From IMG/VR virus record IMGVR_UViG_3300024323_000009, positions 1-53,162 of that record: 53,162 bases of DNA; one strand, given 5' to 3'. This stretch comes from a virus (lineage: Duplodnaviria; Caudoviricetes). The notes beneath the pieces were generated by a model. That model made no database searches. It saw nothing but the letters and a program-made list of their open reading frames with translations, and was not told the origin of the DNA. Within the stretch, counting starts at the first letter, position 1. The number at the start of each line of letters is the position of its first letter. Positions 141-45,863 of this stretch are shown here, one piece after another. The position numbers were made by a program, and so were the translations under genes.

Positions 141-156
141 AGCATTTTCCGTGCCA
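141..156 (-). promoter_or_regulatory. sigma54 (-24/-12) promoter A, leftward
   Basis: Minus strand TGGCACGGAAAATGCT: exact GG-N10-GC spacing, close to the TGGCACG-N4-TTGCW consensus. Confidence 0.8.
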
Positions 157-228
157 TAACCCGCCCTACTTCACTTGGGACTAGTCTGCTCACTGGTAAA
201 ATAGTTTGAACTATTTCACTCCGGGGAG

Positions 229-256
229 TTGACACTAGCTCTAGCTGTGCCATTGT
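229..256 (+). promoter_or_regulatory. sigma70-type promoter for ORF 320-1009
   Basis: TTGACA-N16-CATTGT with TGn extension, about 60 nt upstream of the ATG at 320. The -10 is imperfect. Confidence 0.5.
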
Positions 257-319
257 ATAGCTACGGTGACGGCGCGGCAATGAAGCAACGCCCGATGCCG
301 GTAGAACACAGAACAACAT

Positions 320-1009
320 ATGAGTAATGAAGCAAAACCAGTAGTCGCGCCAGTAGTGGCGGACGTTCCCGCATACAATACCCGTGGTGATCGCAACGGT
401 ATCGCCTTTGACCTTGGCAAGCGTGAGACAGAACGCGCTAAGAAGGGCGAAGATACGGTAACGTATTGGGGGTTTGACATTGGGCAGTATCTCAATGCCA
501 GTGTCCCTGGCGAACGTCCCCTGCCACAACTTGCGGCCAATGCCACTGACGCGCAGAAGAAAGCACATGCGGAGATTATTGCGGCGAACATTCAGTCACG
601 CCGTGAGTATGCAATCGCGCAGCTTGATACGCTGTTAGGGAGTGACAGTGACGGCAAGTGTATCCTCTTAGATATGGTTGAATCTAAGATGAACGGCTCA
701 CTACTTGCCGCACAAAAAGACAAGGGCAAGGACAACTATGACATGACTACCAAGCTGCAACGCGCATTCGCTTGGTTCAATAACCTTAGCGTTGCCCGGG
801 CTGTCCAAAAATCCCCGATGGACATTGCCAAGGACGAAATGGTAACGGCGATTCAGGACTCCGCAAAAGCGTTAGCGGCTGGCACCATTGATGCCGCTGC
901 GAATGCTCTTGCGGTGCAATCGGCCATTGCGAGCTATCAGAAGCGCGTCGCAGAACTGTCCGCTGCAATGACGGCGCAAGCACTCGCCGATGCCGGTATC
1001 ACGCTGTAA
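320..1009 (+). CDS. Hypothetical early protein, alanine-rich helical C-terminus
   Basis: 229-aa ORF with its own promoter and terminator. No family recognised. Confidence 0.8.
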   Translation: MSNEAKPVVAPVVADVPAYNTRGDRNGIAFDLGKRETERAKKGEDTVTYWGFDIGQYLNASVPGERPLPQLAANATDAQKKAHAEIIAANIQSRREYAIAQLDTLLGSDSDGKCILLDMVESKMNGSLLAAQKDKGKDNYDMTTKLQRAFAWFNNLSVARAVQKSPMDIAKDEMVTAIQDSAKALAAGTIDAAANALAVQSAIASYQKRVAELSAAMTAQALADAGITL

Positions 1010-1033
1010 GCCTCACTAACAGCCACTACAAAT

Positions 1034-1064
1034 AGCCCCTTGGTTCACAGCCAAGGGGTTTTTT
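1034..1064 (+). terminator. Rho-independent terminator
   Basis: AGCCCCTTGG...CCAAGGGGTT hairpin followed by a T run, just after the stop at 1009. Confidence 0.85.
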
Positions 1065-1093
1065 GTCACTACTCCCAATCGCTTCCGGCGTTG

Positions 1094-1272
1094 TCAGGTT
1101 ACCTACTTCCCCATGCTTGCTAGTAATCCCTATGCGCTAGCTAGCAGACCCATACGTGAGCTAGTAGAAAGCTAGTGTTGCTTTGCGATAAATCGTAAAT
1201 CCTTTTCAGCCAGCATATCCGCCAGTGTTGGCATTTACCCTTCAGGTTACCTATTTGCCCCATCCTGCTAGT
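1094..1272. repeat. Imperfect 31-bp direct repeat (1094-1124 and 1242-1272) in a long non-coding region
   Basis: TCAGGTTACCTACTTCCCCATGCTTGCTAGT vs TCAGGTTACCTATTTGCCCCATCCTGCTAGT. Confidence 0.75.
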
Positions 1273-1984
1273 CCTACTCCGATCACTCTCCTAGCGAGTC
1301 GCTATCTCCTGCTAGCTTGCTCAAAAACTAGGAGTAGTAAGTAGTGGCATCTGACTAAGATCATAATGGTAAGTGTTTAAGTTTAAAAAGACCCCCCACA
1401 CCGTGTATATTAGAATATATAATTTATATACATTATAGTTGTTTACTGGCGTTTAACCCGTAAATTCTCGCAAACACTTCACGGGCACCCCTTAAACACT
1501 CCGCTCGTTCAATGGCGTTTATCGGAGACCTACAACGACACCCTTGCTACTCGACACCTAGTGCTAGCTAGCAATCCTTATCGTCTTTGTAGTGACACAA
1601 GCGCAACTAAAGACTAGCACTATTCCGACGTGTATAAATAAATACAGCTAACATCACACTCGCGTTTAATTGTTGCGCTTATCTTACGAGTTGACTAATG
1701 ACATTTACTACTCATTACTAACAAGCATCACGCTGTTACTAATAACGTCGCTAGTTAGCGGCAGATAATTAAACGCCGTTTATCCCACCGTGCTAGTCAT
1801 CACGCCAGTTACTACTCCACCGCTAGTTATTACCATAGCTAATCATGTGCTATTACTAGGGAGGGGTAGCCCCCAGAAACATTTTTGCTGGCCCGAACCA
1901 TCATACTCTCTCGAAACGCTAATTTTCGAGTATTCGAGGTTCTTAATGATAGCAACTAGCTACTCGATACTATTACCCAGATGT

Positions 1985-2000
1985 TGGCATAAGAAATGCT
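1985..2000 (+). promoter_or_regulatory. sigma54 promoter B, head of the packaging/structural arm
   Basis: TGGCATAAGAAATGCT with GG-N10-GC. With flanks it is a near-identical 20-mer to promoter D. Confidence 0.85.
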
Positions 2001-2081
2001 CTGTTAGATAGTGATTTATGGATACTAGTTTGTGGAGCACATCTAATAATGGTAACGGATGGAGTATAACTTCACAGAGAA

Positions 2082-2270
2082 TTGTGGCGGAGAGTGGTTA
2101 TGGACGATTACAGAACATTAGCAGCGAAGCGGGACAGTCTAGTAAAGACGATGCAGCAAGCACAACAGTTGAAGAACAGGGTAGTCGAGAGAACGACGCG
2201 GTTGCAGTTGCAGCAAGTTAGGGACCAAATAAAGCAGGTGGTTAAGAACTATAATAACAGTAAAAGATAA
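2082..2270 (+). CDS. Small coiled-coil hypothetical protein (start may be the ATG at 2100)
   Basis: ORF just downstream of promoter B, 7 nt before the next ORF. An overlapping alternative ORF exists at 2018-2221. Confidence 0.5.
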   Translation: MWRRVVMDDYRTLAAKRDSLVKTMQQAQQLKNRVVERTTRLQLQQVRDQIKQVVKNYNNSKR

Positions 2271-2277
2271 TAATAAT

Positions 2278-2475
2278 ATGAAAAAAGGACTTCAAGTTAG
2301 TTGGCAAGTTAAAGGAGCACCAATGCCGGGTTATGGTACAGTTATCTCCGATGAGGAGAATGGTTGTGTGTTGGTGGCAGTGGATACTCTCGATGGTAGT
2401 CCTAATCCGGGTTACCATATTGTGATTCACTGTACTGTGACATGGTTGACGCCAGTTAATACCAGCACGAACTAG
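2278..2475 (+). CDS. Small hypothetical protein
   Basis: 65-aa ORF in a tightly packed operon. Confidence 0.7.
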   Translation: MKKGLQVSWQVKGAPMPGYGTVISDEENGCVLVAVDTLDGSPNPGYHIVIHCTVTWLTPVNTSTN

Positions 2476-2476
2476 T

Positions 2477-2614
2477 ATGGACCTTACTAATCCGAAAACG
2501 ATTTTGTGCATCATCGCGGTAATACTCGCAGTGGTAGGCATCGTGAAACCGCAGTGGCCATGTGTGGCGGTAGCTGTGTTGCTAGTGGCGATAGCGACGT
2601 TGATTAAGTCGTAG
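2477..2614 (+). CDS. 45-aa two-TM membrane protein (holin-like candidate), not in the ORF track
   Basis: Translated by hand: MDLTNPKTILCIIAVILAVVGIVKPQWPCVAVAVLLVAIATLIKS. It fills the gap between neighbouring ORFs. Confidence 0.65.
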   Translation: MDLTNPKTILCIIAVILAVVGIVKPQWPCVAVAVLLVAIATLIKS

Positions 2615-2618
2615 TAGT

Positions 2619-3056
2619 ATGGGCTTCGACAGCAGACAGATACTAGAGCTAGGCAAGCAAGGGTTAAATGCCGAGGAGATAGCTGCCGCTTTGGGGTATG
2701 ATGTAGAGCTAGTCACTACTGTCTTGACGAAGGGGGCGGAAGTTCCGGCCCTAGCTGATACTACTCTCGAAAAGCCTAAAGCTAGAGGGATGATGTTTGA
2801 TGATAGTATGGAGCAACTCGCAGTTGCGACGGTGAAGGATATTCTATTAGATACAGAAGTGAAAGCACAAACACGTCTTAATGCGGCTCGAACTGTCATC
2901 GAGGAACGCAAGGGCCTACTAGAACCCAAAGTCGCTACTAACGTCACTTTCAATATCATGGACTTTAACGAACGGTTGCAGCAGATGCGCCGACGGCGGG
3001 AGGAATTGGAGAGGGTGATAGATGTGCAGGGAGATACTAAATTGGTAGCTGCATGA
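2619..3056 (+). CDS. Putative terminase small subunit
   Basis: N-terminal HTH-like segment (GLNAEEIAAALGYD), helical middle and coiled-coil tail. Lies upstream of TerL. Confidence 0.6.
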   Translation: MGFDSRQILELGKQGLNAEEIAAALGYDVELVTTVLTKGAEVPALADTTLEKPKARGMMFDDSMEQLAVATVKDILLDTEVKAQTRLNAARTVIEERKGLLEPKVATNVTFNIMDFNERLQQMRRRREELERVIDVQGDTKLVAA

Positions 3057-3349
3057 ACACAAGAACATTCATCAAATCACTGCTAGTCGGCGCTATCGCA
3101 CCTTCGGTATTTTTGCCGAAAGCTAGTGACTCGTTTAAGTGGAAACGCACGGCTAGTGGAATCTATGTTGTTAGTGACGTTGACAAATTTCAAAGACTTC
3201 CTTATTACTTAACCAAGGTTGAATTAGAGCATTTTCCCAGCTGGAATAGTTTTGAAATGTTGTATGGAACCAATATCTGGAAACCAGATATGGGTGATAC
3301 TAAAAGAGCAATTACTATTCGCTCCGATTTTTACGCTTCTGGATTCTAG
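3053..3349 (+). CDS. Tat-like leader fused to a paralogue of the major capsid N-terminus
   Basis: MNTRTFIKSLLVGAIAP leader. Segment DVDKFQRLPYY...KRAIT aligns ungapped to MCP DKDRFQKLPFY...MRAVT at 28/47 identities by hand count. Confidence 0.75.
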   Translation: MNTRTFIKSLLVGAIAPSVFLPKASDSFKWKRTASGIYVVSDVDKFQRLPYYLTKVELEHFPSWNSFEMLYGTNIWKPDMGDTKRAITIRSDFYASGF

Positions 3350-3351
3350 TT

Positions 3352-4959
3352 GTGGACTCCAACACCTCCATCGTCCCCTTCGATTTCAAAGACCCGATAG
3401 ATATGCTACTAGCGATAGATGATATGCTACTTCGAGGCTCCGCGAATGGTGGCATTGACCTCTATAAGTGGCAAATGGAAGTAATGAAAGACTTCGCACA
3501 GGAGAGTAGCGACCGAGAGCCATTCCTAGCAGTAGCTCGAACCTGTAATGGTGCCGGTAAGGACCATATGCTAATTGCGCCCTGTGCTACATGGTTGTGC
3601 TGTCACTATGCCTACGCACAAGTTGTGATAACGTCGAAGTCCGGCCCACAGCTAGACAAGCAGACGAACACCCGCATACAACAGATATGCGAAGCATTTA
3701 ATGCTAAGTGCGGCGAAGAGATATGGAAGATCAACTACCGGCACTATGAGAACCTTCGCACTCGCTCTACTATTGAAATGTTTGTTACAGATGAGGCTGG
3801 ACGCGCCGAAGGATGGCACCCTAAAGTTCCGGGAGGCAAGCAGGCGATATTTACTAGCGAAGCGAAGTCCATCGAAGAAGAGATATTCCAAGCCCTCGCT
3901 AGATGCACCGGAACTACTCACCGACTCGACTGTTCTACACCGGGGTTACCTATGGGGCATTTCTTTAACAGATGCACTAGTGGCAACTGGCGCAAGTACC
4001 ATGTGACGGCGTTCGACTGTCCCCATATCTCACCGGCGGAGATAGCTAGCGTTGCAGAGATGTATGGTGAAGGCTCTCCGACGTATAAGTCCATGATCCT
4101 CGCAGAGTTCTCCACTACCGACGACTTAGTAGTAATTCCGTATTTTCGTGTAGTAGCAGCGATGTCGGGGAACGGGAAGATTCCGCATACTCGGGAAGTG
4201 CATAACACCGGCGGTCTAGACCTATCGGCGGGTGGAGACGAGACTGTGCTAGCGGTTAGGAATGGTAACAAACTACTCTCTATATATGGATGGCGATATG
4301 ATGATACCAGTAGAACAGTCGAACATGTCGAAAAACTGCTCAAGGAGAATGGGTTACAAGACCCTAAAACTACAATCTGGGCTGACGCCGGAGGACTTGG
4401 GAAACCAATCATTGATAATCTACGTTCGAGAGGATGGTACAATATCAAGTATGTTGTTAATCAAGGCTCCCCCAACGACAAGCGAGTCTATCTCAACCGT
4501 GGAACAGAAATGTACTTCACCCTCAACCGATGGCTAGAAAATGGCGAGATCATACTACTCCCAGATGAACGATTACGACGACAACTATCCACTCGTTACT
4601 ATGTTGCGACCGATAACAGGTATCGTCTTGAATCAAAGCTACAAGCGAGGGCCAAAGGGCATCCGTCCCCGGACAGAGCTGATGCCGTTGTATTGGCATT
4701 CTCGAACTACCGAACTCAATTTCGAGATGGCGTACCAGATGATCGGCTCCCGCTACCACCACGAGTTATACAGTCACCTCCTACGGGGGGAGACTTCACT
4801 CTGAAAGGTCATGCACAGGGAGGGGATGATGTGCAACGATACCTCGATCAGAAGTATGGTTCATGGTCAGCGAACGGCAAAGATGATAGCTATTTGAGGG
4901 AGCAGATTGCGGAGTTGAATGCGAAGAGGAAAGCAGTAACCACTAATGAAAATAACTGA
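3352..4959 (+). CDS. terL: Terminase large subunit
   Basis: Walker A-like RTCNGAGKD, STPG coupling motif, and RNase H-fold nuclease motifs GLDLSAGGDETV, DAGGLG and SPDRADA. Confidence 0.9.
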   Translation: MDSNTSIVPFDFKDPIDMLLAIDDMLLRGSANGGIDLYKWQMEVMKDFAQESSDREPFLAVARTCNGAGKDHMLIAPCATWLCCHYAYAQVVITSKSGPQLDKQTNTRIQQICEAFNAKCGEEIWKINYRHYENLRTRSTIEMFVTDEAGRAEGWHPKVPGGKQAIFTSEAKSIEEEIFQALARCTGTTHRLDCSTPGLPMGHFFNRCTSGNWRKYHVTAFDCPHISPAEIASVAEMYGEGSPTYKSMILAEFSTTDDLVVIPYFRVVAAMSGNGKIPHTREVHNTGGLDLSAGGDETVLAVRNGNKLLSIYGWRYDDTSRTVEHVEKLLKENGLQDPKTTIWADAGGLGKPIIDNLRSRGWYNIKYVVNQGSPNDKRVYLNRGTEMYFTLNRWLENGEIILLPDERLRRQLSTRYYVATDNRYRLESKLQARAKGHPSPDRADAVVLAFSNYRTQFRDGVPDDRLPLPPRVIQSPPTGGDFTLKGHAQGGDDVQRYLDQKYGSWSANGKDDSYLREQIAELNAKRKAVTTNENN

Positions 4960-5260
4960 CACTATTCCAGCGGCGACCGAAGGGAGTAGAGATACAAGCG
5001 GCTATGCAGTTGAGAGCACTCTTTTCTTAGCACGTAGAGTTCTTGACGATCATGCGTTAGTGTTCAAGCAGTTCTATGAAGAGAGCTTGAAAGAGCAGGG
5101 TGGACAAATGAGCGAGCTATCACGTAGGTATGCAGCGCAATATAACAGCTTAGTAGATTTACGCAAGAAACTAAATCAAGAGACTGCATCGCAGATGGTA
5201 AGATGGGATGGACCAGAAGCAACACAGAAAATTTACTTTAGTACAACAACAAACAACTGA
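4946..5260 (+). CDS. Hypothetical protein
   Basis: 104-aa ORF overlapping the terL stop. Confidence 0.65.
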   Translation: MKITDTIPAATEGSRDTSGYAVESTLFLARRVLDDHALVFKQFYEESLKEQGGQMSELSRRYAAQYNSLVDLRKKLNQETASQMVRWDGPEATQKIYFSTTTNN

Positions 5261-5268
5261 TTACTATT

Positions 5269-5550
5269 ATGATGGACAAAGTTAACACAGATGGCGCAGA
5301 TGGTCAGGGTGATGCGGTAGCTAGTGGCGCGCTAGATAGTGGTGCAGAAGAACGTGGTGAACCCTCCTCCGAGGGAGTAGTAATCTCCGAGCAGTTCCAA
5401 AAAGCATTGTATGAATTGTTGGAAGATGCGAGTATGGAAGAGCTACAATTCGCATCAAACTGTGCGAACGAAAAGCGATATGAGCTAGAGCAAGCGAAGA
5501 GGGAAGAGGAAGCGCCAGAACTCTCCACTGAGGGGATGCCCTCTGACTAG
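5269..5550 (+). CDS. Acidic hypothetical protein
   Basis: 93-aa E/D-rich ORF in the operon. Confidence 0.65.
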   Translation: MMDKVNTDGADGQGDAVASGALDSGAEERGEPSSEGVVISEQFQKALYELLEDASMEELQFASNCANEKRYELEQAKREEEAPELSTEGMPSD

Positions 5551-5551
5551 T

Positions 5552-5665
5552 ATGTCTAAAGACCTTAAAGAGCGTATAGTGGCAGTTTTGATAGGTGTTG
5601 GCGCTGGTATAGTAGTCGGCACAATCATTTTAGTCATCATCCATTTCTACAATCAACCTCTATGA
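5552..5665 (+). CDS. 37-aa single-TM protein, not in the ORF track
   Basis: MSKDLKERIVAVLIGVGAGIVVGTIILVIIHFYNQPL, with an ATGA overlap onto the portal start. Confidence 0.55.
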   Translation: MSKDLKERIVAVLIGVGAGIVVGTIILVIIHFYNQPL

Positions 5666-7626
5666 GCGCCACTACCGACAATCAACCCGCCTCTTCTGAC
5701 ACCTACAAAGTCCCCAACCTCCTAGTATTCGACGAGGCAAAGGACATGATTAAGAAGCTCGTCTCTGTCATGGAGGAGCAAGATAAGGTATTGAAGACGA
5801 ATCGGAACTTACGGTATGCGGAGATAGATATAGAAGCAGAACGCAAAGCGGGCAGGATAGCGCCAGATGAACTCTACGTTCCTCAGCATGTCATTGATGC
5901 TAATATCCGGCGCGAACAGTCCGTCTATGTCGGTTATCTTACCGCTCCTCCACGCTCTTTAGTGCTATCAAACATTCAGAATCCATCCACAGTTACCGAG
6001 CCGATTGAGCGTGATATAACGAACCGCATTCGCTACGATGGCTGGCAAATGCCACTCTATCGAGCCGTCGACTCCATGCAACAGAACGGCTACGGAGTAG
6101 TAGAAATCGTCCAAGACCAGTCGAAGCCGGGCCACTTAGTAATACAAGATGTAGCTTATGACGACTTCGGCTACTGTCTCGACTCGAAGGATATTCAGAG
6201 TGCGGAGATGATAACGCGGCAATATCACTTCACTAAGACGCAGTTGATAGCGTTGACGAAGATCAAAGACCCTACGAAGAGGTTCGACATAGAACAAGTA
6301 GAACGTATCGTCACTGCGAAGGACCGCGAAGCAGAGGACTACAAGGAGACTTCGCTGTTCAAAGTAGAGAAAGTAATGTTCCGCAAGAAGGGAGTAGTGC
6401 AAGTGGGGTGGTCTTGTCAGTTGAAGTGTGATGATTGGTTACGAGCACCACGGCCATTATATATCGGGCGTCAGCGTCGCTCTCCAATCGGCTTCTGGAT
6501 GAAGGATTTTGAGACAGATTACCCCTTCTTTATCCTTCCCTATACTATCACTGAGAACACCACCATCCGGCAATTCCGAGGACGGGCGTATTTCGATCAA
6601 GATGTGCAGGAAGCTATCTCCTCGCTCATGTCGTCCGTGGTGACTGGCTACCGACGTTCCACCTACTTCATGTTCTCCAAAGATATTGACAATGACCCCA
6701 ATGGAGATGTGGCGACACAGACGGTAGTAGTAGGCAACGGCAAAGTGGTGAACAGTAAGGTAAGGCAGTTCATGCTAGCGGCGCCGGATGCCACCTCTCT
6801 ATCCGCGATACAAGCCCTCACTTCTGCTAATCTCCAAGAACAATCCCAGATCAACTATGCTGCAAACAACCGTCAAGACTCTCGTAAAACTGCAACTGAG
6901 ATACAGGCTGCACAGCAGAACTCACAACAACTATCCACTATTCAGTTGGCGTTGTTTTCCACTAGCATCAAAGCTATCTATTCGACATTCTTCGAGGTGT
7001 GTCGTAGTAGAGTGCTAGCTCAGTTGATACTAGACTTACCGCCGCAGCTTGTGGAGTTGTATGGCGCTACATACTCGATTCGACCGGCGGGTGACTCCGA
7101 TGTAGTCGAACGTCAACAGAAGATTCAACAGATGCAACAAGCATGGCCAGTGATGGAACATACTCCGGCAGCGCAGATGTTCCTCTCGAAGTTATTGATG
7201 CTATTGTTCCCCGAAGATGCTCCGCAGTACTTGACGGCATTCCAAGTAGATCAGACGAAGGATAAAGCGTTACAATCCTGTCTCCAAGTACTAGGCGCGT
7301 TAGTCCAAGACCCCAACGCCTTATCTCCCCAAGAGCGTCAGAATGTGCCGCAGATACTAGGACTGATACAGAATATTATCCAGATACTCCATCCTCAGCA
7401 GCAACCGGGCCAAGGCAAGGGCCAACAACAAGGTAGTGGTAAAGGTATCGGTGGCCAACCTGCTATCGGCGCTAACTCCCCCATGCAACCCCAAGGTGGT
7501 AATCGTCCACAGATGCCTCAAGGTGGTAGTGGAGGCGGTCCTAGTCCTAGCATGGGTCAATTACTCTCTACTCGGCTTCTCCAGATGGCGAGGCCAGCAC
7601 AGCAACTACAACAGCAGAATCCATAG
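5662..7626 (+). CDS. Portal protein
   Basis: 654 aa after TerL. Has a podovirus-portal-like RKTATEIQ motif and a Q/G/P-rich C-terminal tail. Confidence 0.8.
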   Translation: MSATTDNQPASSDTYKVPNLLVFDEAKDMIKKLVSVMEEQDKVLKTNRNLRYAEIDIEAERKAGRIAPDELYVPQHVIDANIRREQSVYVGYLTAPPRSLVLSNIQNPSTVTEPIERDITNRIRYDGWQMPLYRAVDSMQQNGYGVVEIVQDQSKPGHLVIQDVAYDDFGYCLDSKDIQSAEMITRQYHFTKTQLIALTKIKDPTKRFDIEQVERIVTAKDREAEDYKETSLFKVEKVMFRKKGVVQVGWSCQLKCDDWLRAPRPLYIGRQRRSPIGFWMKDFETDYPFFILPYTITENTTIRQFRGRAYFDQDVQEAISSLMSSVVTGYRRSTYFMFSKDIDNDPNGDVATQTVVVGNGKVVNSKVRQFMLAAPDATSLSAIQALTSANLQEQSQINYAANNRQDSRKTATEIQAAQQNSQQLSTIQLALFSTSIKAIYSTFFEVCRSRVLAQLILDLPPQLVELYGATYSIRPAGDSDVVERQQKIQQMQQAWPVMEHTPAAQMFLSKLLMLLFPEDAPQYLTAFQVDQTKDKALQSCLQVLGALVQDPNALSPQERQNVPQILGLIQNIIQILHPQQQPGQGKGQQQGSGKGIGGQPAIGANSPMQPQGGNRPQMPQGGSGGGPSPSMGQLLSTRLLQMARPAQQLQQQNP

Positions 7627-7633
7627 TACTATT

Positions 7634-7831
7634 ATGTTAACACTCCAAGACCGTATCCGAATGTTTCGAGGCACTAAACGCTTCGACTCCTTACACGAAG
7701 TTCCAGCTGATCTCGTTCATGCTCAAGATGTGCGTGATGATACTCATCCAGTGCCAGAAACACCAGCGCCGCTTACTGAGTCAGCGGAAGTAACGCCGAA
7801 GAAGAGTAAGGCGAAGACGAGACATAACTAA
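7634..7831 (+). CDS. Small hypothetical protein
   Basis: Non-overlapping 3' part of track ORF 7436-7831, starting at the ATG at 7634. Confidence 0.55.
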   Translation: MLTLQDRIRMFRGTKRFDSLHEVPADLVHAQDVRDDTHPVPETPAPLTESAEVTPKKSKAKTRHN

Positions 7832-7832
7832 T

Positions 7833-8135
7833 ATGAATCCATCTCAAACTACACAGCTTCCTGATGGTTCTGCTTTCTTTACAGCAGAGATAATGTCAAA
7901 GGATGAAGCATTAGCACTTCCGATCAACAAGCGTCCCATTTGTTATCGTGTTTCATCTGAACTTTACCATGATGTCTTTCAAGCTGTAGGTTCTGCATCT
8001 ATGTGCTGGAAGCCAGATACAGGAAGTGCTGTATTTCAAAGTGAGCAGGCTTCCGATATTGCAATTAAACTGTTGTTTAAGATAGCAAATGAAAAAGAGA
8101 AAGCAGTAGAAGAAGCTTTGAGCTTAAAGAAGTGA
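7833..8135 (+). CDS. Hypothetical protein
   Basis: 100-aa ORF in the operon. Confidence 0.65.
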   Translation: MNPSQTTQLPDGSAFFTAEIMSKDEALALPINKRPICYRVSSELYHDVFQAVGSASMCWKPDTGSAVFQSEQASDIAIKLLFKIANEKEKAVEEALSLKK

Positions 8136-8416
8136 AACAGCTACCACCACAACTAGCTACTCCTGAGAACATTGAACTCGTAGCTCTCCACGAAAAGTGG
8201 CTCCAATCACCAGTAGCAGCGAAGGTGCGACAATTACTAGACCACTGGGTTACTAACTACACTAACTTTGCTGCTACTGGTTCAGTTACTTCTGAAATAT
8301 CAGCCGAATCTGTTCGCATACGCGCGGCACAACTTCACACACTCCTAAAACTCCGAGACACACTATATGACACTGAACGCTTCATCACAGAGATTGCTAG
8401 ACCCCACACCAGTTGA
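8132..8416 (+). CDS. Hypothetical protein
   Basis: 94-aa helical ORF between portal and scaffold. Confidence 0.6.
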   Translation: MKQLPPQLATPENIELVALHEKWLQSPVAAKVRQLLDHWVTNYTNFAATGSVTSEISAESVRIRAAQLHTLLKLRDTLYDTERFITEIARPHTS

Positions 8417-9635
8417 GGGCGGGAATGGTGGCACTACCACTACTACGGAGCCTCCGGCTTCTGCTACCACACTCACTCCTGACCAACAGAAGATAGCCTC
8501 GGCAGTTGAGAAGGTAGCAGCAGCGGAGCCATCACCAGCGCCACGAACTAGCACTACGCCTAAGATCACCAAGCCACTAGTACCCACAGGTGTTCCAGAC
8601 GATGTGTTGAAGATCAACTTTGGGATGGATGATAATGATGTTTTGTCCACACTTGAACAGGAGCAAGAGGTTCCAGTTAAGAAGGAGGGTGAGAAGAAAG
8701 TAGAGCCGAAGGTTGAGGCTAAAGTCGAGCCAAAGAAAGATGAAAAAGCTCCCACCGAAGATGGTATCATTCGGCCCAAAGCCGCGCAACAGCGCCAACA
8801 GCAACAGCAACAGCAACCCGACTCGCGTGACTATAACGGATTCGATGCTGAGACAGTTGCCGCGTTGAAGAGGATGCCGAACGAGTCGTATAACGTAGTG
8901 CATAAGCAGTTGCGAGAGTTCGAGCAGTTGAAACAACAGAAGGTGGGTAGTTACTTGCAGCATCCACAAGCTTATACTTTGAGTCCCGAGTATGCTCAAG
9001 CGTCGGCAATGGTAGGACAAGCTGAATACGAGATACAGCATTACGAACAGCAATTACTAAATATCCGCGCCGGTAAAGACTGGACTGTCCTCACTGGCTT
9101 CGATCAGAAGACTGGTCAACCAATAGTATCTCCGGCGCAGAAAGCTAGTGACGAGTCGGATATACGAGTAGCGAACACCCTCTCTCAACTCTCGCAACAA
9201 GCCGAACAGTTCCGGCGTCAACGCTCTGATATAACCGCGAACTTCCAGAAGCGTATTGAAGCCGAGAACCAGATGATTAACCAAGTCAGGGCGCAACGGT
9301 TCGGATGGGTAGCTGACCCCAAAACTCTTGATGATACTGTCGAGGTTGTGATTAAGGGTACTCCTACTCCCATTCCTATCAAGCAGGTCATCGCTGACTT
9401 TAAGAACTTATTCCCTCCTCACCATCACGCATCACCTATCCTCGATGTTGCTGCTGATATGTTCGTAGCTATGCAGATCAAAGAACAGGAGAACCGCGAA
9501 CTACGAAGTAAGACCGAGACTCAATCGCGGTTGCGAGAAGACTCGGACGCTGCTGAGATTAACGTCGAGACTGCTAGTAACGGAGCACCTAATAAGGGTG
9601 AGACTGTGTTTGATATGGCAGGGTTGGAGGACTAG
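8367..9635 (+). CDS. Putative capsid scaffolding protein
   Basis: Low-complexity N-terminus plus coiled coils, immediately upstream of the capsid gene. Confidence 0.65.
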   Translation: MTLNASSQRLLDPTPVEGGNGGTTTTTEPPASATTLTPDQQKIASAVEKVAAAEPSPAPRTSTTPKITKPLVPTGVPDDVLKINFGMDDNDVLSTLEQEQEVPVKKEGEKKVEPKVEAKVEPKKDEKAPTEDGIIRPKAAQQRQQQQQQQPDSRDYNGFDAETVAALKRMPNESYNVVHKQLREFEQLKQQKVGSYLQHPQAYTLSPEYAQASAMVGQAEYEIQHYEQQLLNIRAGKDWTVLTGFDQKTGQPIVSPAQKASDESDIRVANTLSQLSQQAEQFRRQRSDITANFQKRIEAENQMINQVRAQRFGWVADPKTLDDTVEVVIKGTPTPIPIKQVIADFKNLFPPHHHASPILDVAADMFVAMQIKEQENRELRSKTETQSRLREDSDAAEINVETASNGAPNKGETVFDMAGLED

Positions 9636-9655
9636 CATTGCTAGTAACTCAGTCT

Positions 9656-9671
9656 TGGCACGAATCTTGCT
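9656..9671 (+). promoter_or_regulatory. sigma54 promoter C, major capsid gene
   Basis: TGGCACGAATCTTGCT is a perfect match to TGGCACG-N4-TTGCW. Intergenic, 145 nt upstream of the capsid ATG. Confidence 0.92.
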
Positions 9672-9699
9672 AATACCCAAGTAGTTCGGCGCTCGACGC

Positions 9700-9759
9700 C
9701 ATTGCTTCTAGTCGTAGTAAGGGCATACTACATTGCTTCTGAAGTAGAAGGGCATCTAC
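9700..9759 (+). repeat. Tandem repeat of CATTGCTTCT plus a hairpin with AGGGCA loop, in the capsid 5' leader
   Basis: GTAGTA-AGGGCA-TACTAC (9714-9731) and GTAGA-AGGGCA-TCTAC (9744-9759). Confidence 0.8.
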
Positions 9760-9816
9760 AGCGATAACAGGCTGTCTGTTATACTGTCAGATAACTTTTT
9801 ACAACAGGACAATTAA

Positions 9817-11097: not shown

Positions 11098-11138
11098 CCA
11101 CTAACGATAACCTTTTATACAAAGAAAGATATAAGACA

Positions 11139-11660: not shown

Positions 11661-11678
11661 GGAGGGGCTTGGTTTGGG

Positions 11679-11718
11679 GGCACTCACTGACACCTTGTAG
11701 TTGGTGAGTGCCTTTTCT
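11679..11718 (+). terminator. Rho-independent terminator closing the capsid transcript
   Basis: GGCACTCACTGAC-loop-GTTGGTGAGTGCC followed by TTTTCT. Confidence 0.75.
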
Positions 11719-11760
11719 CCTTTAAGTGAATGATTAGAAGAAAGGAACGATAATAGTAAT

Positions 11761-12090: not shown

Positions 12091-12091
12091 T

Positions 12092-39525: not shown

Positions 39526-39759
39526 TCAATCTCCCTCCTTCGGTTGTAGTCCTAGCAAGCGTTGCTCTAGTCCCTGTAGCGCCGCATTCACTCCACGAAT
39601 ACTATACAGCGCACTTCTCACTGGCACTAGGTGTTCCGTTGCGTTAAGACCACGCTTATCACCATCTAGTATCACGCGAGGTAATGCTTGTAGGTGAGCT
39701 TCAGCACTCAATATGCCATCACGCGCCTTTGTTAGTAGTTGGATTTTACTCTCTGGCAT
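39526..39759 (-). CDS. Hypothetical protein
   Basis: 77-aa ORF in the operon. Confidence 0.55.
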   Translation of the reverse strand: MPESKIQLLTKARDGILSAEAHLQALPRVILDGDKRGLNATEHLVPVRSALYSIRGVNAALQGLEQRLLGLQPKEGD

Positions 39760-40538: not shown

Positions 40539-40787
40539 CTAGGTCGAACTAGGAACTGATGGAGTAAAGTTATGGATGATGCCGAGTGCAAAGCGACGGC
40601 GATGTTGGCACTCTTTGCCTTCTCGCCTAGCTCTAGCTACTGACTCACGATAAAAGTCACGGCGACTAGCTACCTTTGGAGTGAGTGTGAAGATAGCACT
40701 AGCTGGATACGCCTTTGCAGGTGGCTGAATAGTGGGGTTATACTTGTTATCCGGTTTCGCTGGTGGTTGTTCTTTAGTATCGTTCAT
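40539..40787 (-). CDS. Hypothetical protein
   Basis: 82-aa ORF overlapping the stop of the ATPase gene. Confidence 0.5.
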   Translation of the reverse strand: MNDTKEQPPAKPDNKYNPTIQPPAKAYPASAIFTLTPKVASRRDFYRESVARARREGKECQHRRRFALGIIHNFTPSVPSST

Positions 40788-41461
40788 GTTGTTTTTGGTT
40801 CACCATTATAGTAACTCTTCGCTCTTGCAATCACTGCTGCTAAATCGTTCGGCACTAGTTGGTCAGTGAACATTTCTAGTGGAGTCTTCGCTGTCGTCGA
40901 ACCGTCCGTGTTCGTCTGAAACCAATACTCCATAGCTCCGGCTTTATTGCGTCGGGGTTCAGTGAACAACACCAGTAAGAACTCCTTCTCAATCTTGCCG
41001 CGTTGTTCCTTGCCATCTACTGCCATCATTCGCTTATTCGTAGTTGAGCCATCCACATTCACTAGTTCTACTATGTCGTCTATGCTAGTGACTGCTACGG
41101 CACACTTATCATTTTTGTATTGGTTGAGAGTAGCTTGGACCATCTTCGAGTATTGTCCGTAAATCTCAAATCCCTTGTAGCACTTTTGGCATAGCTCTTT
41201 GATCTGCTCGAAACGTTTAGTGAGTGAGTCTACTACAATCAACTCTACGTTAGGTGTCTTGAGTGCGAGTTGGAACTGTGAATCATGCTCGGCAGGATTA
41301 GCAAAGGGAAGGATTCGGAACTTATTTGAGCCACGAAAGGGGAACCCCTTACGTTCGCCGTCTAGTATCACAGTTGTATCAGGATTAAGATTTCGTAGCG
41401 AGGTACTCTTCCCAGACCCCGATGGTCCTACAATCGCGATTAGTGCCTTGTGTTCGGACAT
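40784..41461 (-). CDS. AAA_24 / Sak4-like recombination ATPase
   Basis: GPSGSGKST, ILDGERKG, IVVDSLT and AKTP motifs. Confidence 0.75.
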   Translation of the reverse strand: MSEHKALIAIVGPSGSGKSTSLRNLNPDTTVILDGERKGFPFRGSNKFRILPFANPAEHDSQFQLALKTPNVELIVVDSLTKRFEQIKELCQKCYKGFEIYGQYSKMVQATLNQYKNDKCAVAVTSIDDIVELVNVDGSTTNKRMMAVDGKEQRGKIEKEFLLVLFTEPRRNKAGAMEYWFQTNTDGSTTAKTPLEMFTDQLVPNDLAAVIARAKSYYNGEPKTT

Positions 41462-41512: not shown

Positions 41513-41528
41513 AGCATTTTCTATGCCA
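41513..41528 (-). promoter_or_regulatory. sigma54 promoter D, upstream of the Sak4-like/SSB/polymerase genes
   Basis: Minus strand TGGCATAGAAAATGCT in a 71-bp intergenic gap. Confidence 0.85.
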
Positions 41529-41532
41529 ACTT

Positions 41533-42722: not shown

Positions 42723-42943
42723 ATAATAGAAGCGTCTTTCATTCTATCTCTAGCCCACTCTGCTCTAGCTACGAAATACTCGCCTACAAACTCCATGATA
42801 CGACTCTGTAGTTTGTCGTTATCATACATATCGAAGCCACAGTGTTCACAGTGGCAGTCAGGATAGTAGTCAGAGGGTGACTCTATCACTATATCTATGT
42901 CAGTATCCTTGTGACAGTTAGTGCATTCAAATGGCATTGTCAT
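42719..42943 (-). CDS. Zinc-ribbon protein
   Basis: CTNC...CEHC. Confidence 0.6.
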   Translation of the reverse strand: MTMPFECTNCHKDTDIDIVIESPSDYYPDCHCEHCGFDMYDNDKLQSRIMEFVGEYFVARAEWARDRMKDASII

Positions 42944-43621: not shown

Positions 43622-43648
43622 ATAGTGTTGTTCTTTCTAGTGTTGCCG

Positions 43649-44032
43649 TTAATTGCCAAACAGGTTGTCGCGCTTCGGAGCCTCGAAGGGACTAGGAGTA
43701 GGAGTCGTCGGCTCTCCACTACTCTTTATCTCTTCCATCACTTTATCGAACATCTTCATCATCTCAACAGCGTTCTTCATACCAGCCATCGCATGTTGGA
43801 CACGTACTTCACTGATCTGTCTGAGTAACCAGTCTGCGACTACAGCTACTAATGTCCTGGTAGAGCACTTTGCTACTTCTTCCTTGATAATCTCTGTGAA
43901 CTCTTTGCGTCCTCTCTCGAAGTTCTCTACTGAGAAGCCACCCTTTATTACTTCGGCTTCAGCGAGTTTTAGACGTGGAGCGATACGATTAATTGCGCTA
44001 GCTAACTCTTTGATTTGTTGTTCTTTTGTCAT
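43649..44032 (-). CDS. Hypothetical protein
   Basis: 127-aa helical ORF. Confidence 0.6.
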   Translation of the reverse strand: MTKEQQIKELASAINRIAPRLKLAEAEVIKGGFSVENFERGRKEFTEIIKEEVAKCSTRTLVAVVADWLLRQISEVRVQHAMAGMKNAVEMMKMFDKVMEEIKSSGEPTTPTPSPFEAPKRDNLFGN

Positions 44033-44062
44033 ACTATACTATTGTGTTTGTTGTTTGTGTTG

Positions 44063-44674
44063 TTATCTCATTACTCTCACATAAGTCTGTTGTATATCTG
44101 CCTCTACTCCCTCGATACCCGCAAACAGTTGGACTAGCCACTCCTTATCGGCGTCGGAGATAGGAATGCCATTTGCGTATAGCTTCCGACTATCCCATAT
44201 CTCTTCCGACTGTGCGACTTGTAACCACTCCTGCAATGCATCTTTCCAGTTAGCTTCGGGTCTGGAAGCATCAACTACGTTAGTCACTGAGCTAGCTAGT
44301 ATCGCAGACATAGTGTTCTTGAAGTAGAGGATGATACCGATAGCTTCTCCCTCAGCGTTCCACTCTTTGCTAATACCTATTTGCTGTCTGAACTGTAAAT
44401 AGCGTCCGGGTTGTGGGTCGAACTCGCTCAACCAGCGGAGGGCGTCGTTAGCTTTGATATACAACGTGCTAGCGGAATAGCCAGAGAGTTGACAGCTAAC
44501 CTTCTTCGTCTGCCTATCTGCTATCATTCCATCAAAGATCGGCTTCCACGCAGCCGCGTTCTCAGGAGTGAACGATGGACGATGCTTCGCTATAGTCCCT
44601 TTCGGTCTGCGGGTGTTAGCTAGCACCGGCGCTGCCACACTAATCGCTTCGAGAGGGGGATTATCGTTGGGCAT
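44063..44674 (-). CDS. Hypothetical protein
   Basis: 203-aa ORF. Confidence 0.7.
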   Translation of the reverse strand: MPNDNPPLEAISVAAPVLANTRRPKGTIAKHRPSFTPENAAAWKPIFDGMIADRQTKKVSCQLSGYSASTLYIKANDALRWLSEFDPQPGRYLQFRQQIGISKEWNAEGEAIGIILYFKNTMSAILASSVTNVVDASRPEANWKDALQEWLQVAQSEEIWDSRKLYANGIPISDADKEWLVQLFAGIEGVEADIQQTYVRVMR

Positions 44675-44679
44675 AAACG

Positions 44680-44928
44680 CTATCGAGAGAGTTGGTGTTT
44701 ATTGGCATAGCAAAAATTAAAGAGTGACAACAGTAGGGCTTCATACCTTGCGACTCGGCTCAATCCCCGATATGTTGCATACTTAGTAACCATCTCTATG
44801 CTCACTAGTGAATCACTTGGCATAGATACTCTCCTGTTCTGCGGTCGCTTCGGCGTCGGGGCTAGCACGCCGGATACTGGTTCTAACAACAACCACGCGA
44901 AGGCTATTGCTGATTCCGATTTTATCAT
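44680..44928 (-). CDS. Hypothetical protein
   Basis: 82-aa ORF with weak support. Confidence 0.4.
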   Translation of the reverse strand: MIKSESAIAFAWLLLEPVSGVLAPTPKRPQNRRVSMPSDSLVSIEMVTKYATYRGLSRVARYEALLLSLFNFCYANKHQLSR

Positions 44929-45192
44929 CTACTGTTGTCACAAAATTATTCCCACAGTCCAACAACTAGGCTCTAGGTACGACTGGCAGAACTACACTAA
45001 ACGAGCCGTCACACACATTGTCAGTTAGCGATGATGCTGTGGGAGCCATCATATGTTTGAAATGTTTAGTGTAGGAAAGAGAAAGTCCTCACCACTACTC
45101 CCAACTCTACGTTGCTTTCGTGGTGAGGTTCCACAACCTTCCTCTATTGAAATTGAAGGATAACGATAGAGGCGTTGTGTTGATTGTTGCGA

Positions 45193-45774
45193 TTACGTAG
45201 TCGCAGTAGTCGCCTGTGCCGCAGCCGCAGCAGCTTCTCCCTGCGCCATTTCTGTCATTACCTTCTGCATCTTGAGCAGCAAGGCAACACCCTCTTGTAT
45301 CTTCGCCGGGTCTTTTGACTCCATCAGCTCGCGAGCTTGCTTGAACATCTGATTGGGCGAGAGTTCGCGCACGTCTGGACGCCAGCTAGCAGCTTCGTCC
45401 TGAGTGTAGAGGATGCCGTCTTTGAACTTCGCTAGTAACGTCTGTTGCAGTTGGATACCAGCAGCGACATTCTTAGTATCGAACTTTTCGGGGACGTTAT
45501 CATTCTTCACCTTCGTCCTGATACGAGCAGCGCCGACACTGGCCATCACTCCCATAATCGCTTCTTTGCCGAGCCGAGTTACCATAGTGTCGAAGTCGGA
45601 ATACACAGGAGAGTAGAACTTGAAGTTCTTGAGTGGGCCTTCGGAGATTTCGTTAAGCTCGAAGGTGATGGGAGCACCATTGGTAGCAGCGGGTGCTGCG
45701 GTAGTTGTAGTAGCAGCAGTGCCTCCACTATCTGCAACTGTGGGGTCAAGGAGGATGTTTCGATTATTATTCAT
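45193..45774 (-). CDS. Hypothetical protein with its own sigma54 promoter and a scaffold-like N-terminal motif
   Basis: 193 aa, N-terminus ILLDPTVADSGGTAATTTTAAP. Confidence 0.8.
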   Translation of the reverse strand: MNNNRNILLDPTVADSGGTAATTTTAAPAATNGAPITFELNEISEGPLKNFKFYSPVYSDFDTMVTRLGKEAIMGVMASVGAARIRTKVKNDNVPEKFDTKNVAAGIQLQQTLLAKFKDGILYTQDEAASWRPDVRELSPNQMFKQARELMESKDPAKIQEGVALLLKMQKVMTEMAQGEAAAAAAQATTATT

Positions 45775-45847
45775 ATTGCCTTTTTACTAACTGTTCTATT
45801 GTTTGGTTTAGAGGAGTAACTATTACTCCCGAATCGAGTTGAGGTTA

Positions 45848-45863
45848 AGCAGGAATCGTGCCA
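45848..45863 (-). promoter_or_regulatory. sigma54 promoter E
   Basis: Minus strand TGGCACGATTCCTGCT, intergenic, 73 nt upstream of the ATG at 45774. Confidence 0.88.

What the first reader, a model, noticed from the sequence alone, without database searches (positions are those of the whole stretch)
141..45863. Five intergenic -24/-12 sigma54 promoters form a phage-wide regulon
Seen: TGGCACGGAAAATGCT (141-156, -), TGGCATAAGAAATGCT (1985-2000, +), TGGCACGAATCTTGCT (9656-9671, +), TGGCATAGAAAATGCT (41513-41528, -) and TGGCACGATTCCTGCT (45848-45863, -). All have exact GG-N10-GC spacing and share TGGCAYR-N5-TGCT. All lie outside credible genes and face an operon: the early arm, terminase/portal, capsid, Sak4-SSB-polymerase, and the 45774 gene. 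B and D are near-identical 20-mers (GTTGGCATAAGAAATGCTCT / GTTGGCATAGAAAATGCTCT). Most other TGGCA sites I inspected inside genes fail the spacing. Inference: these are the cis half of the activator system.
Basis: partly seen in the sequence, partly recalled or inferred. Interest (0 to 1): 0.93.

Follow-up and report, generated by a model that had tools for sequence, protein, structure and literature searches.

The report
Phage sigma-54 promoter set, self-activated
An uncultured 53-kb phage carries five well-placed promoters for the host's alternative sigma-54 RNA polymerase together with its own stripped-down activator gene, and its relatives keep the same promoters at the same gene junctions, so it probably switches on its middle and late genes this way.

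Summary
All five TGGCAYR-N5-TGCT sites are at the stated coordinates. The pattern gives 6 matches against 0.09 expected. The sixth (39703-39718, -) lies inside a gene and scores low.

A weight matrix built only from relatives ranks the five sites as the window's top five hits, all in the 7% non-coding DNA.

The phage encodes a 290-aa GAFTGA activator with no DNA-binding domain (46504-47376, -). It has no sigma-54, sigma-70-type factor or own polymerase.

Conservation:
- A co-oriented site precedes the capsid gene in 37 of 37 related contigs.
- One follows the activator gene in 45 of 55.
- Three positions recur in 8-9 of 9 complete relatives.
- The Sak4 site is unique to this phage.
- The "early arm" site needs the record's ends to join, which is not shown.

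No RNA data exist and the host is unknown.

Host sigma-54 use is published for phage YuA, which lacks an activator. I found no paper on a phage-encoded one. This scan had already flagged the system on this genome (e1-6286161) and on other genomes.

The parts
45848..45863 (-). Sigma-54 -24/-12 promoter (TGGCACGATTCCTGCT) before the 193-aa gene 45193-45774. Predicted start about 45837, leader about 63 nt.
   Evidence: Top matrix hit in the window, 24.3 bits. Intergenic. A co-oriented site follows the activator gene in 45 of 55 related loci and in 9 of 9 complete relatives.
9656..9671 (+). Sigma-54 promoter (TGGCACGAATCTTGCT) between the scaffold-like gene 8367-9635 and the capsid gene 9817-11097. 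Predicted start about 9682, leader about 135 nt.
   Evidence: 19.6 bits. A co-oriented site lies 125-260 nt before the capsid match in 37 of 37 viral loci, with 0 antisense, and also in L074. Present in 9 of 9 complete relatives.
1985..2000 (+). Sigma-54 promoter (TGGCATAAGAAATGCT) at the head of the rightward packaging/virion arm. Predicted start about 2011. The first gene is uncertain: ATG 2018 (leader 7 nt) or ATG 2100 (leader 89 nt, GGAGAG before it).
   Evidence: 12.9 bits, fifth-best hit. Intergenic. A co-oriented site lies upstream of the TerL block in 8 of 9 complete relatives.
41513..41528 (-). Sigma-54 promoter (TGGCATAGAAAATGCT) in the 71-nt gap before the Sak4-like gene 40784-41461. 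Predicted start about 41502, leader about 41 nt.
   Evidence: 20.3 bits. Sak4 assignment: phrog_2872, E 1.3e-26. Not conserved: 0 of 9 complete relatives have a site next to Sak4.
141..156 (-). Sigma-54 promoter (TGGCACGGAAAATGCT) pointing at the record's left end. If the ends join, it lies upstream of the early arm that starts at 53108 and contains the activator gene.
   Evidence: 20.0 bits. Non-coding. Sites that face the early arm occur in 5 of 9 relatives (G002, G006, G007, G008, G009). In G002 this control region is contiguous.
35..63 (-). Sigma-70-type promoter-like site (TTGACA, 17 nt, GATATT, with TG before the second hexamer), downstream of the 141-156 site and pointing the same way. 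Likely the activator-independent early promoter.
   Evidence: Best consensus match (10 of 12) in 1-12500. This is a consensus match only. The number of such sites in the region is not above the shuffles.
46504..47376 (-). Gene for a 290-aa sigma-54 activator: AAA+ core with Walker A GDSGVGKE, GAFTGA and Walker B DE. It has a 63-aa N-terminal extension and no helix-turn-helix domain.
   Evidence: PF00158 E 6.1e-52 over residues 64-225, and no DNA-binding family found. Sequence read. phrog_7998 'unknown function'.
45193..45774 (-). 193-aa protein of unknown function. It is the first gene behind the most conserved promoter.
   Evidence: Orthologues sit behind the same promoter in relatives. No Pfam or PHROG family. 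The model has pLDDT 81 but no fold match beyond generic helical hairpins.
9714..9759 (+). Two hairpins in the capsid leader (9714-9731 and 9744-9759), each with an AGGGCA loop closed by A-T.
   Evidence: In 42 distinct units from relatives, stem pairs 2-4 are paired in 42/42, 42/42 and 41/42, with all Watson-Crick types. Shifted controls give 4-19 of 42. Leader fold z = -3.7. No Rfam family.
11676..11715 (+). Terminator-like hairpin (16-bp stem, T-rich tail) after the capsid gene and gene 11139-11660. It may bound a short, abundant capsid transcript.
   Evidence: pattern scan only.
39703..39718 (-). Sixth exact match to the shared pattern (TGGCATATTGAGTGCT), inside gene 39526-39759. Probably chance or a weak internal site.
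   Evidence: Under 8.4 bits with the relatives' matrix.

Best explanation
The five sites are working promoters for the host's sigma-54 RNA polymerase holoenzyme. The phage's own activator (46504-47376) switches them on.

Proposed sequence of events (inferred unless marked):
1. Host sigma-70 polymerase starts at an ordinary promoter (about 63-35, -) and reads the leftward early arm, which includes the activator gene.
2. The activator has no DNA-binding domain. It assembles in solution and uses ATP to open the closed complexes that sigma-54 holoenzyme has already formed at the -24/-12 sites. The domain content is shown. The mode of action is inferred from bacterial activators that lack a DNA-binding domain.
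3. This fires three transcription units: a middle unit from about 45837 (193-aa protein to exonuclease), a unit from about 41502 (Sak4, DNA polymerase, primase), and the rightward arm from about 2011 (terminase, portal, scaffold).
4. A separate strong promoter at about 9682 serves the capsid gene. Its leader carries two conserved hairpins.
5. The site at 141-156 would feed back on the early arm if the genome ends join.
For: Statistics:
- 6 pattern matches against 0.09 expected.
- A matrix built from 30 distinct sites of relatives ranks the five sites first to fifth in the window (24.3, 20.3, 20.0, 19.6, 12.9 bits).
- Hits above 15 bits: 4 real against 0 in the reversed sequence.
- All five lie in the 7.0% non-coding DNA (p about 1.7e-6) and all are co-oriented with the following gene.

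Trans factor:
- PF00158 at E 6e-52 with GAFTGA and no HTH.
- No sigma-54 domains, no Sigma70_r2 and no T7-type polymerase in the phage.

Conservation:
- A co-oriented site after the activator gene in 45 of 55 loci (43 within 150 nt, 0 antisense).
- A site before the capsid gene in 37 of 37 loci and in L074.
- In 9 complete relatives: pre-capsid 9/9, post-activator 9/9, head of the TerL arm 8/9.
- TGGCA-N7-TGCW totals 61 in those nine, against 3 for the reversed pattern.
- Outside the -24/-12 boxes the flanks are not conserved between lineages.

Precedent: phage YuA depends on host sigma-54 (passage in PMC5053324). Its GenBank record annotates three active '-24/-12' promoters in the virion region.
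Against: - No transcript data: no RNA run holds this phage, so no start site is mapped.
- The host is unknown, so the presence of RpoN is not shown. The only clue is a 4.6-kb related contig binned in an Acidobacteriota MAG that has rpoN, which is weak.
- Four of the five sites lack the T of TTGC at -12.
- The Sak4 site is in none of 9 relatives.
- 10 of 55 activator loci show no site.
- The 141-156 site points off the end of the record. Two assemblies stop at the same poly-C run.
- No upstream enhancer-like repeat is shared by the window's promoters.
- No strong minus-strand terminators separate the leftward units, so read-through from the early promoter could also express them.
- In the redundant activator loci the reversed control pattern still gave 29 hits against 63.
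Confidence: 0.85

Rival explanations
1. The sites are genuine sigma-54 promoters, but host activators switch them on (as must be the case in phage YuA). The phage's activator would then serve another purpose, such as turning on host sigma-54 genes.
For: YuA uses sigma-54 promoters without encoding an activator: PF00158 scores only 11.7 bits, under the 20.2 cut-off. An activator without a DNA-binding domain would act on host promoters as well.
Against: The activator gene and the sites co-occur. The most conserved site lies directly after the activator gene in 43 of 55 loci. All four relatives tested for PF00158 have the gene at 179-194 bits. No array of binding sites for a host activator was found upstream of the window's promoters.
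Confidence: 0.07
2. The motif is bound by a different, phage-specific factor and only resembles the sigma-54 consensus.
For: Four of five sites deviate from TTGC at -12. Several relatives carry lineage-specific motifs at a fixed distance upstream of the box, so another DNA-binding factor may be involved.
Against: The invariant letters are exactly the sigma-54 determinants (TGGCA, then TGC after 7 bases) across lineages whose flanks differ. The genome encodes the one protein class that acts only on sigma-54. No alternative sigma factor or polymerase was found.
Confidence: 0.04
3. The sites bind sigma-54 holoenzyme without firing. They would act as roadblocks, insulators or a sink for host sigma-54.
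For: Sigma-54 holoenzyme forms stable closed complexes. Widespread non-productive and intragenic binding is reported for E. coli (PMC4591121; title and start of the abstract seen in the search listing).
Against: All five sites are oriented with, and just upstream of, genes. The capsid site is followed by a conserved structured leader. A roadblock would not need a phage-encoded activator.
Confidence: 0.03
4. Chance matches.
For: None beyond the one intragenic sixth match. A loosened pattern is only mildly enriched (18 against 11.8).
Confidence: 0.01

Closest known systems
Sigma-54-dependent promoters of Pseudomonas aeruginosa phage YuA (Ceyssens et al. 2008, J Bacteriol 190:1429). The paper itself is not held. 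I saw the citing passages in PMC5053324 and PMC10914365, and the GenBank annotation of NC_010116.
   Same: A tailed phage without its own RNA polymerase places -24/-12 promoters in front of virion genes and depends on host sigma-54. YuA also has a conserved non-coding RNA in the 5'UTR of its major head gene (passage in PMC10914365). That parallels the structured capsid leader here.
   Different: YuA has no sigma-54 activator gene, whereas this phage and its relatives do. The two are not related: the capsid gives no tblastn hit to any named phage, no Pseudomonas record is among the 65 activator hits, and YuA is not among the 25 TerL hits shown, though 148 further TerL records, 8 of them Pseudomonas, were not listed. 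Here the sites also drive recombination and replication genes.
Bacterial enhancer-binding proteins that lack a DNA-binding domain: FlgR of Helicobacter pylori, CtcC of Chlamydia, FleT of Cereibacter sphaeroides. Also the truncated, promiscuous DctD250 used in Salmonella (PMC3844500; title and start of the abstract seen in the listing). The first three are recalled.
   Same: An AAA+ core with GAFTGA and no C-terminal HTH. It is expected to activate from solution any promoter occupied by sigma-54 holoenzyme. This fits the lack of shared upstream sites in the window.
   Different: It is encoded by a virus, next to its own target promoter. It has no receiver domain and carries a 63-aa N-terminal extension of unknown role. 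Its activity is untested.
Classical enhancer-dependent sigma-54 promoters (NtrC at glnAp2, NifA, PspF) (recalled).
   Same: -24 GG and -12 GC with 10-bp spacing and a TGGCAC-like -24 box.
   Different: No upstream activator sites or repeats are shared by the window's five promoters. The -12 box is mostly ATGC or CTGC.
Htm (Gp204) of an E. coli phage (bioRxiv 10.64898/2026.10.06.757011; passages read).
   Same: A phage AAA+ protein that resembles these activators in fold and lacks the DNA-binding domain.
   Different: By the authors' account Htm lacks the GAFTGA loop, and no sigma-54 promoters of the phage are described. The protein here has GAFTGA and a matching promoter set.

Membership tests
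Sigma-54 (-24/-12) promoter | GG and GC dinucleotides exactly 10 bases apart within a TGGCAC-N5-TTGCW-like box (consensus recalled from Barrios et al. 1999) | tested here: met
   5 of 5 sites have TGGCA[CT] and TGCT at the right spacing. Only 1 of 5 has TTGC. Relatives show the same range of variation.
Sigma-54 (-24/-12) promoter | Lies in non-coding DNA upstream of, and co-oriented with, a gene | tested here: met
   For 141-156 the downstream gene exists only if the record's ends join.
Sigma-54 (-24/-12) promoter | A cognate AAA+ activator with GAFTGA is available | tested here: met
   46504-47376: PF00158 E 6.1e-52, GAFTGA read directly.
Sigma-54 (-24/-12) promoter | Sigma-54 (RpoN) is present in the cell | not testable with these tools
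   The phage encodes none and the host is unknown. The only clue is a related contig binned in a MAG that has rpoN, which is weak.
Sigma-54 (-24/-12) promoter | Transcription starts about 12 nt after the GC and depends on rpoN | not testable with these tools
   No RNA run holds the phage.
Sigma-54 (-24/-12) promoter | Kept at orthologous positions in diverged relatives | tested here: met
   Pre-capsid 37/37 loci and 9/9 genomes. Post-activator 45/55 loci and 9/9 genomes. TerL arm 8/9, early arm 5/9, Sak4 0/9.
Classical enhancer-dependent sigma-54 promoter (NtrC/NifA type) | Upstream activator sites (repeats or palindromes) about 80-150 bp upstream | tested here: not met
   Only the 80 nt upstream of each box were searched, which covers just the near edge of the classical enhancer distance. 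Within that stretch no shared fixed-position motif was found in the window (observed score 20, null mean 19.5). I therefore do not file the sites under this subtype. Some relatives do have fixed-position upstream motifs.
YuA-type phage use of host sigma-54 | Phage -24/-12 promoters served by host sigma-54 without a phage-encoded activator | tested here: not met
   This phage and four relatives encode PF00158 proteins (179-194 bits). YuA does not (11.7 bits, under the cut-off).
Activators lacking a DNA-binding domain (FlgR/CtcC/FleT type) | Sigma-54 interaction domain with GAFTGA and no C-terminal HTH | tested here: met
   The protein ends at residue 290. The PF00158 match ends at residue 225, and the phrog_7998 match runs on to 289. 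No HTH family was found at E <= 0.01. Activation from solution is not testable here.

The most novel reading that the evidence does not exclude
A whole clade of uncultured 43-54-kb phages has replaced the usual phage middle/late switch with a self-encoded, enhancer-independent sigma-54 activator. The result is a sigma-70 to activator to sigma-54 cascade with positive feedback on the early arm. In several lineages a lineage-specific motif sits at a fixed distance upstream of the -24 box: AGCCAC at -32, GCTGTCACA at -34, TAGAAGAY at -16. This motif would be a new promoter-proximal docking element, read by the variable N-terminus of the activator or by an accessory phage protein. It would give the phage's own promoters priority over host sigma-54 promoters.
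Probability: 0.25. Interest if true: 0.85.

Novelty: new variant of a known kind. Interest (0 to 1): 0.72.

Why it matters
Phages are known to redirect host RNA polymerase with their own sigma factors, anti-sigma factors or polymerases. Use of sigma-54 is documented for one phage group (YuA), and there without a viral activator. Here a phage brings the ATPase that sigma-54 strictly needs and places matching promoters at its main operon heads. That would be a tight off-to-on switch for middle and late genes, built from a host system with essentially no basal activity.

The arrangement is conserved across dozens of uncultured phage contigs. So it is a transcription strategy of a lineage, not an oddity of one genome.

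It gives testable predictions: five start sites, dependence on rpoN, and dependence on GAFTGA. It also offers a compact, portable activator-promoter pair of possible use as an orthogonal expression switch. An activator without DNA-binding specificity should fire host sigma-54 regulons during infection too, which bears on host takeover.

Tried and rejected
Sequence similarity to named phages
- Megablast of 1-25000 found nothing.
- The capsid protein found nothing.
- The 30 listed of 65 tblastn hits of the activator are mostly bacterial-looking or unannotated contigs filed as phage, all under 60% identity. I did not use them.

RNA evidence and record ends
- No RNA holder is listed for this phage. 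Only two DNA runs labelled soil metagenome hold it.
- Laying their contigs on 1-12000 showed that an independent 53,158-base contig stops at the same poly-C run. Whether the ends join stays open.

Gene calls
- A crude greedy ORF caller (40 aa or more) applied to the relatives labelled many promoter sites 'genic', because spurious short ORFs fill the gaps. It also mislabelled the window's 1985 site. I dropped that classification and used synteny and codon scores instead.

Function of the flanking genes
- PHROGs and Pfam gave nothing for most virion genes.
- The capsid assignment rests on Atlas structure rows: TM 0.59/0.75 to Phage_capsid_4 clusters.
- The 193-aa protein has no family and nothing usable in the Atlas.
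- Its model has pLDDT 81, but Foldseek against the PDB gives no match at E <= 0.001. VIA-align finds only generic helical hairpins over residues 136-193, Z at most 7.0.

Upstream enhancer in the window
- None was found.

Other checks
- RNAalifold on the capsid leader recovered only part of the structure. An anchored count did better. A first count was in the wrong register.
- Rfam gave 0 matches and there are no tRNAs.
- The PF00940 search is uninformative, because its control rang in no genome.
- The host clue is weak: one 4.6-kb contig in a MAG.

Literature
- Seven searches found no paper on a phage-encoded GAFTGA activator with phage sigma-54 promoters.
- 'YuA' as a word start matched 'Yuan'.
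- The 'phage' mentions in PMC4641369 are all phage shock.
- The library lacks most subscription journals.
- Supplements are closed. Table S3 of PMC10914365, which lists the YuA promoters, could not be seen.

Full report
**What the window is.** The window is a whole virus record of 53,162 bases. It is rated 100% complete and 'linear', meaning no terminal repeat was found. GC content is 47%. It has no close DNA relative among named phages.

Genes run rightward from about 2.0 to 31.8 kb. This arm holds the terminase large subunit at 3352-4959, confirmed by tblastn to annotated terminases (best E 9e-47). It also holds a portal-sized gene, a scaffold-like gene, and the capsid gene 9817-11097. The capsid assignment rests on Atlas structure rows to Phage_capsid_4 clusters (TM 0.59/0.75).

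Genes run leftward from 53.1 to 31.8 kb. This arm holds:
- a helicase, an AAA_5 protein and a DUF7192 protein;
- a sigma-54 activator;
- an exonuclease, a Sak4-like annealing protein, a DNA polymerase and a primase.

**The observation.** The shared pattern TGGCAYR-N5-TGCT occurs 6 times, against 0.09 expected. None of 100 dinucleotide-preserving shuffles reaches 6. The pattern read backwards occurs 0 times.

It lies inside a 77-aa ORF with coding-like codon usage.

Looser patterns show the enrichment sits in the full box:
- TGGC-N8-TGC gives 16 against 6.2.
- GGCA-N7-TGCT gives 9 against 1.6.
- TGGCA-N6-TTGC with one mismatch gives 18 against 11.8, which is not significant.

Of 148 TGGCA pentamers, 8 have TGC at the right distance: 5 of 14 intergenic against 3 of 134 genic (Fisher p = 1.7e-4).

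The ORFs that nominally overlap the sites have non-coding codon scores: 71-568 minus, 1790-2011 plus, and 9501-9680 minus score -0.002, -0.12 and -0.11. Trusted genes score 0.18-0.41. So the sites are in non-coding DNA, which makes up 7.0% of the genome.

**An independent matrix.** To avoid circularity, I built a weight matrix from 30 distinct sites found only in related viral contigs. I then scanned the window on both strands.
- The next hit (12.1 bits) is inside a gene.
- Above 15 bits there are 4 real hits and 0 in the reversed sequence, whose maximum is 14.5.
- The chance that five hits all fall in the non-coding 7% is about 1.7e-6.

**The trans factor.** Gene 46504-47376 (-) encodes a 290-aa protein with a sigma-54 interaction domain (PF00158, E 6.1e-52, residues 64-225). 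It has Walker A, the GAFTGA loop and Walker B (read). No DNA-binding family was found, and the protein ends just after the AAA+ core. PHROGs files it as phrog_7998, 'unknown function'.

The phage has no sigma-54 domains and no Sigma70_r2. It shows no T7-type polymerase either, though that search's control rang nowhere. It must therefore use the host polymerase, and for these promoters the host's sigma-54.

**Relatives: the decisive evidence.**
- Fifty-five viral loci encode relatives of the activator. In 45 of them a co-oriented TGGCA-N7-TGCW site lies within 2.5 kb after the activator match: 43 within 150 nt (mostly 58-61 nt), and none on the opposite strand.
- The 10 loci without a site carry the most distant activators.
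- These loci are redundant, with only 30 distinct sites. The reversed control pattern still gave 29 hits against 63, so I do not lean on that total.
- Thirty-seven viral loci encode relatives of the capsid protein (39-73% identity). All 37 have a co-oriented site 125-260 nt before the capsid match, with no antisense match in the same stretches.
- A related contig from a bacterial MAG shows the same arrangement.

**Complete relatives.** In nine complete or near-complete relatives, TGGCA-N7-TGCW totals 61 matches against 3 for the reversed pattern. Two of the nine have terminal repeats.

Synteny maps give these counts:

| Site position | Relatives with a co-oriented site |
|---|---|
| Between scaffold and capsid | 9 of 9 |
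| Downstream of the activator | 9 of 9 |
| Upstream of the terminase block | 8 of 9 (the ninth contig begins inside the terminase gene) |
| Facing the early arm, upstream of the helicase | 5 of 9 |
| Next to Sak4 | 0 of 9 |

Proteins of the four relatives compared are only 22-57% identical to the window's. Outside the boxes the flanks differ between lineages. The boxes themselves are therefore under selection.

**The site at 141-156.** This site points at the left end of the record. Seventy-eight bases further on lies the best sigma-70-type match of the region (TTGACA, 17 nt, GATATT). Then come a poly-G run and the end of the record.

On the other side of the junction, the first leftward gene starts 54 nt in. 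In relative G002 the equivalent region is contiguous. It has two leftward sigma-54 sites before the early genes and one rightward site before the packaging arm.

An independent assembly of the same data also stops at the homopolymer. The join is therefore likely but not shown. If it holds, the activator gene sits in an arm served both by a sigma-70 promoter and by a sigma-54 promoter. That would give positive feedback.

**Transcription units.**
- Predicted starts are 130, 2011, 9682, 41502 and 45837.
- The first gene of the rightward arm is uncertain. ATG 2018 leaves a 7-nt leader. ATG 2100 has a GGAGAG before it and a better codon score.
- A terminator-like hairpin at 11676-11715 follows the capsid gene and one small gene. 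This suggests a short, abundant capsid transcript.
- I found no strong minus-strand terminators in 38-53 kb. The leftward sigma-54 promoters may therefore boost units that the early promoter also reads.
- The genes from 11.7 to 31.8 kb have no site of their own at 12 bits or more.

**Enhancers.**
- The window's five promoters share no upstream motif at a fixed distance (observed score 20, null mean 19.5). This fits an activator that works from solution.
- Several relatives do have such motifs (0 of 200 shuffles reach the observed score for G001-G003; 0.03 and 0.005 of shuffles for G004 and G006). They were read: G001 has AGCCAC 32 nt before the box at 3 of 3 core promoters, G002 has GCTGTCACA at 34 nt at 3 of 5, and G003 and G004 have TAGAAGAY at 16 nt.
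- This hints at an extra, lineage-specific recognition step in those phages.

**The capsid leader.** The transcript from about 9682 begins with two hairpins whose loops read AGGGCA. Across 42 distinct units from relatives, the three variable stem pairs are paired in 42/42, 42/42 and 41/42, using all Watson-Crick types. Shifted controls give 4-19 of 42. The window's leader folds better than all but 1 of its 200 shuffles (z = -3.7). No Rfam family matches. A conserved structured leader that starts right after the predicted start site supports the promoter.

**What is known.**
- Phage YuA of Pseudomonas aeruginosa depends on host sigma-54 (passages in PMC5053324 and PMC10914365). I could not read the original paper.
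- Its GenBank record marks three active '-24/-12' promoters in the virion region.
- YuA has no activator gene (11.7 bits, under the cut-off), whereas four relatives of this phage score 179-194 bits.
- A 2026 preprint describes a phage AAA+ protein that resembles these activators but lacks GAFTGA.
- Seven literature searches found no description of a phage-encoded GAFTGA activator with matching phage promoters. The library lacks most subscription journals.
- This scan had already reported the system from the activator's side on this genome (e1-6286161) and on other genomes (e1-3444291, e1-3642255, e1-3642261). Those are unchecked AI notes. My tests here are independent of them.

**Verdict.** My confidence by site:

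| Site | Confidence that it is a working sigma-54 promoter |
|---|---|
| Capsid (9656) | about 0.95 |
| Post-activator (45848) | about 0.95 |
| Head of the rightward arm (1985) | about 0.85 |
| Sak4 (41513) | about 0.75 |
| Early arm (141) | about 0.7 |

What remains unshown is any transcript, the RpoN dependence, the host, and the joining of the ends.

Noticed in passing
window 9714-9731 and 9744-9759 (+); also L074-L111: Twin hairpins with AGGGCA loops in the capsid 5' leader, each preceded by GCTTCT/GCTACT. They are conserved in 36 of 37 related loci and show strong stem covariation. No Rfam family matches. YuA also has a conserved RNA in its major-head 5'UTR (PMC10914365).
   Followed up: partly
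G001 (L062), G002 (L065-L066), G003 (L069-L070), G004 (L071-L072): Lineage-specific motifs sit at a fixed distance upstream of the -24 box in relatives: AGCCAC at -32, GCTGTCACA at -34, TAGAAGAY at -16. The window has none. They may be docking sites for an extra factor.
   Followed up: partly
window 1-34: A poly-C-rich tract lies at the very start of the record. An independent 53,158-base contig stops at the same place. Relative G002 has a G9 run in the same control region. The record was probably broken at a homopolymer.
   Followed up: partly
window 1010-2017: A 1-kb non-coding stretch between gene 320-1009 and the rightward promoter. It holds a 31-nt direct repeat (1094-1124 and 1242-1272, 81% identical), several GCGTTTA-type repeats and many CTAG-containing words. 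It could be an origin or packaging region.
   Followed up: no
window 3053-3349 (+): The 98-aa product matches the N-terminal part of the capsid orthologues of all nine relatives by tblastn. It looks like a partial duplicate of the capsid N-terminus, lying just before the terminase gene.
   Followed up: no
window 45193-45774 (-): The 193-aa protein behind the most conserved promoter belongs to a family with invariant W131, P133 and R136. The model is confident (pLDDT 81), but no fold or family match was found.
   Followed up: partly
window 44929-45192 (-): A 264-nt gap without an ORF in the leftward arm. Its fold is modestly better than the shuffles (z = -2.45).
   Followed up: no
window 320-1009 (+): A lone rightward gene (229 aa, coding-like score 0.33) sits between the leftward promoters and the rightward arm. 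A clean terminator hairpin follows it at 1034-1060. It has no homologue in the nine relatives.
   Followed up: no
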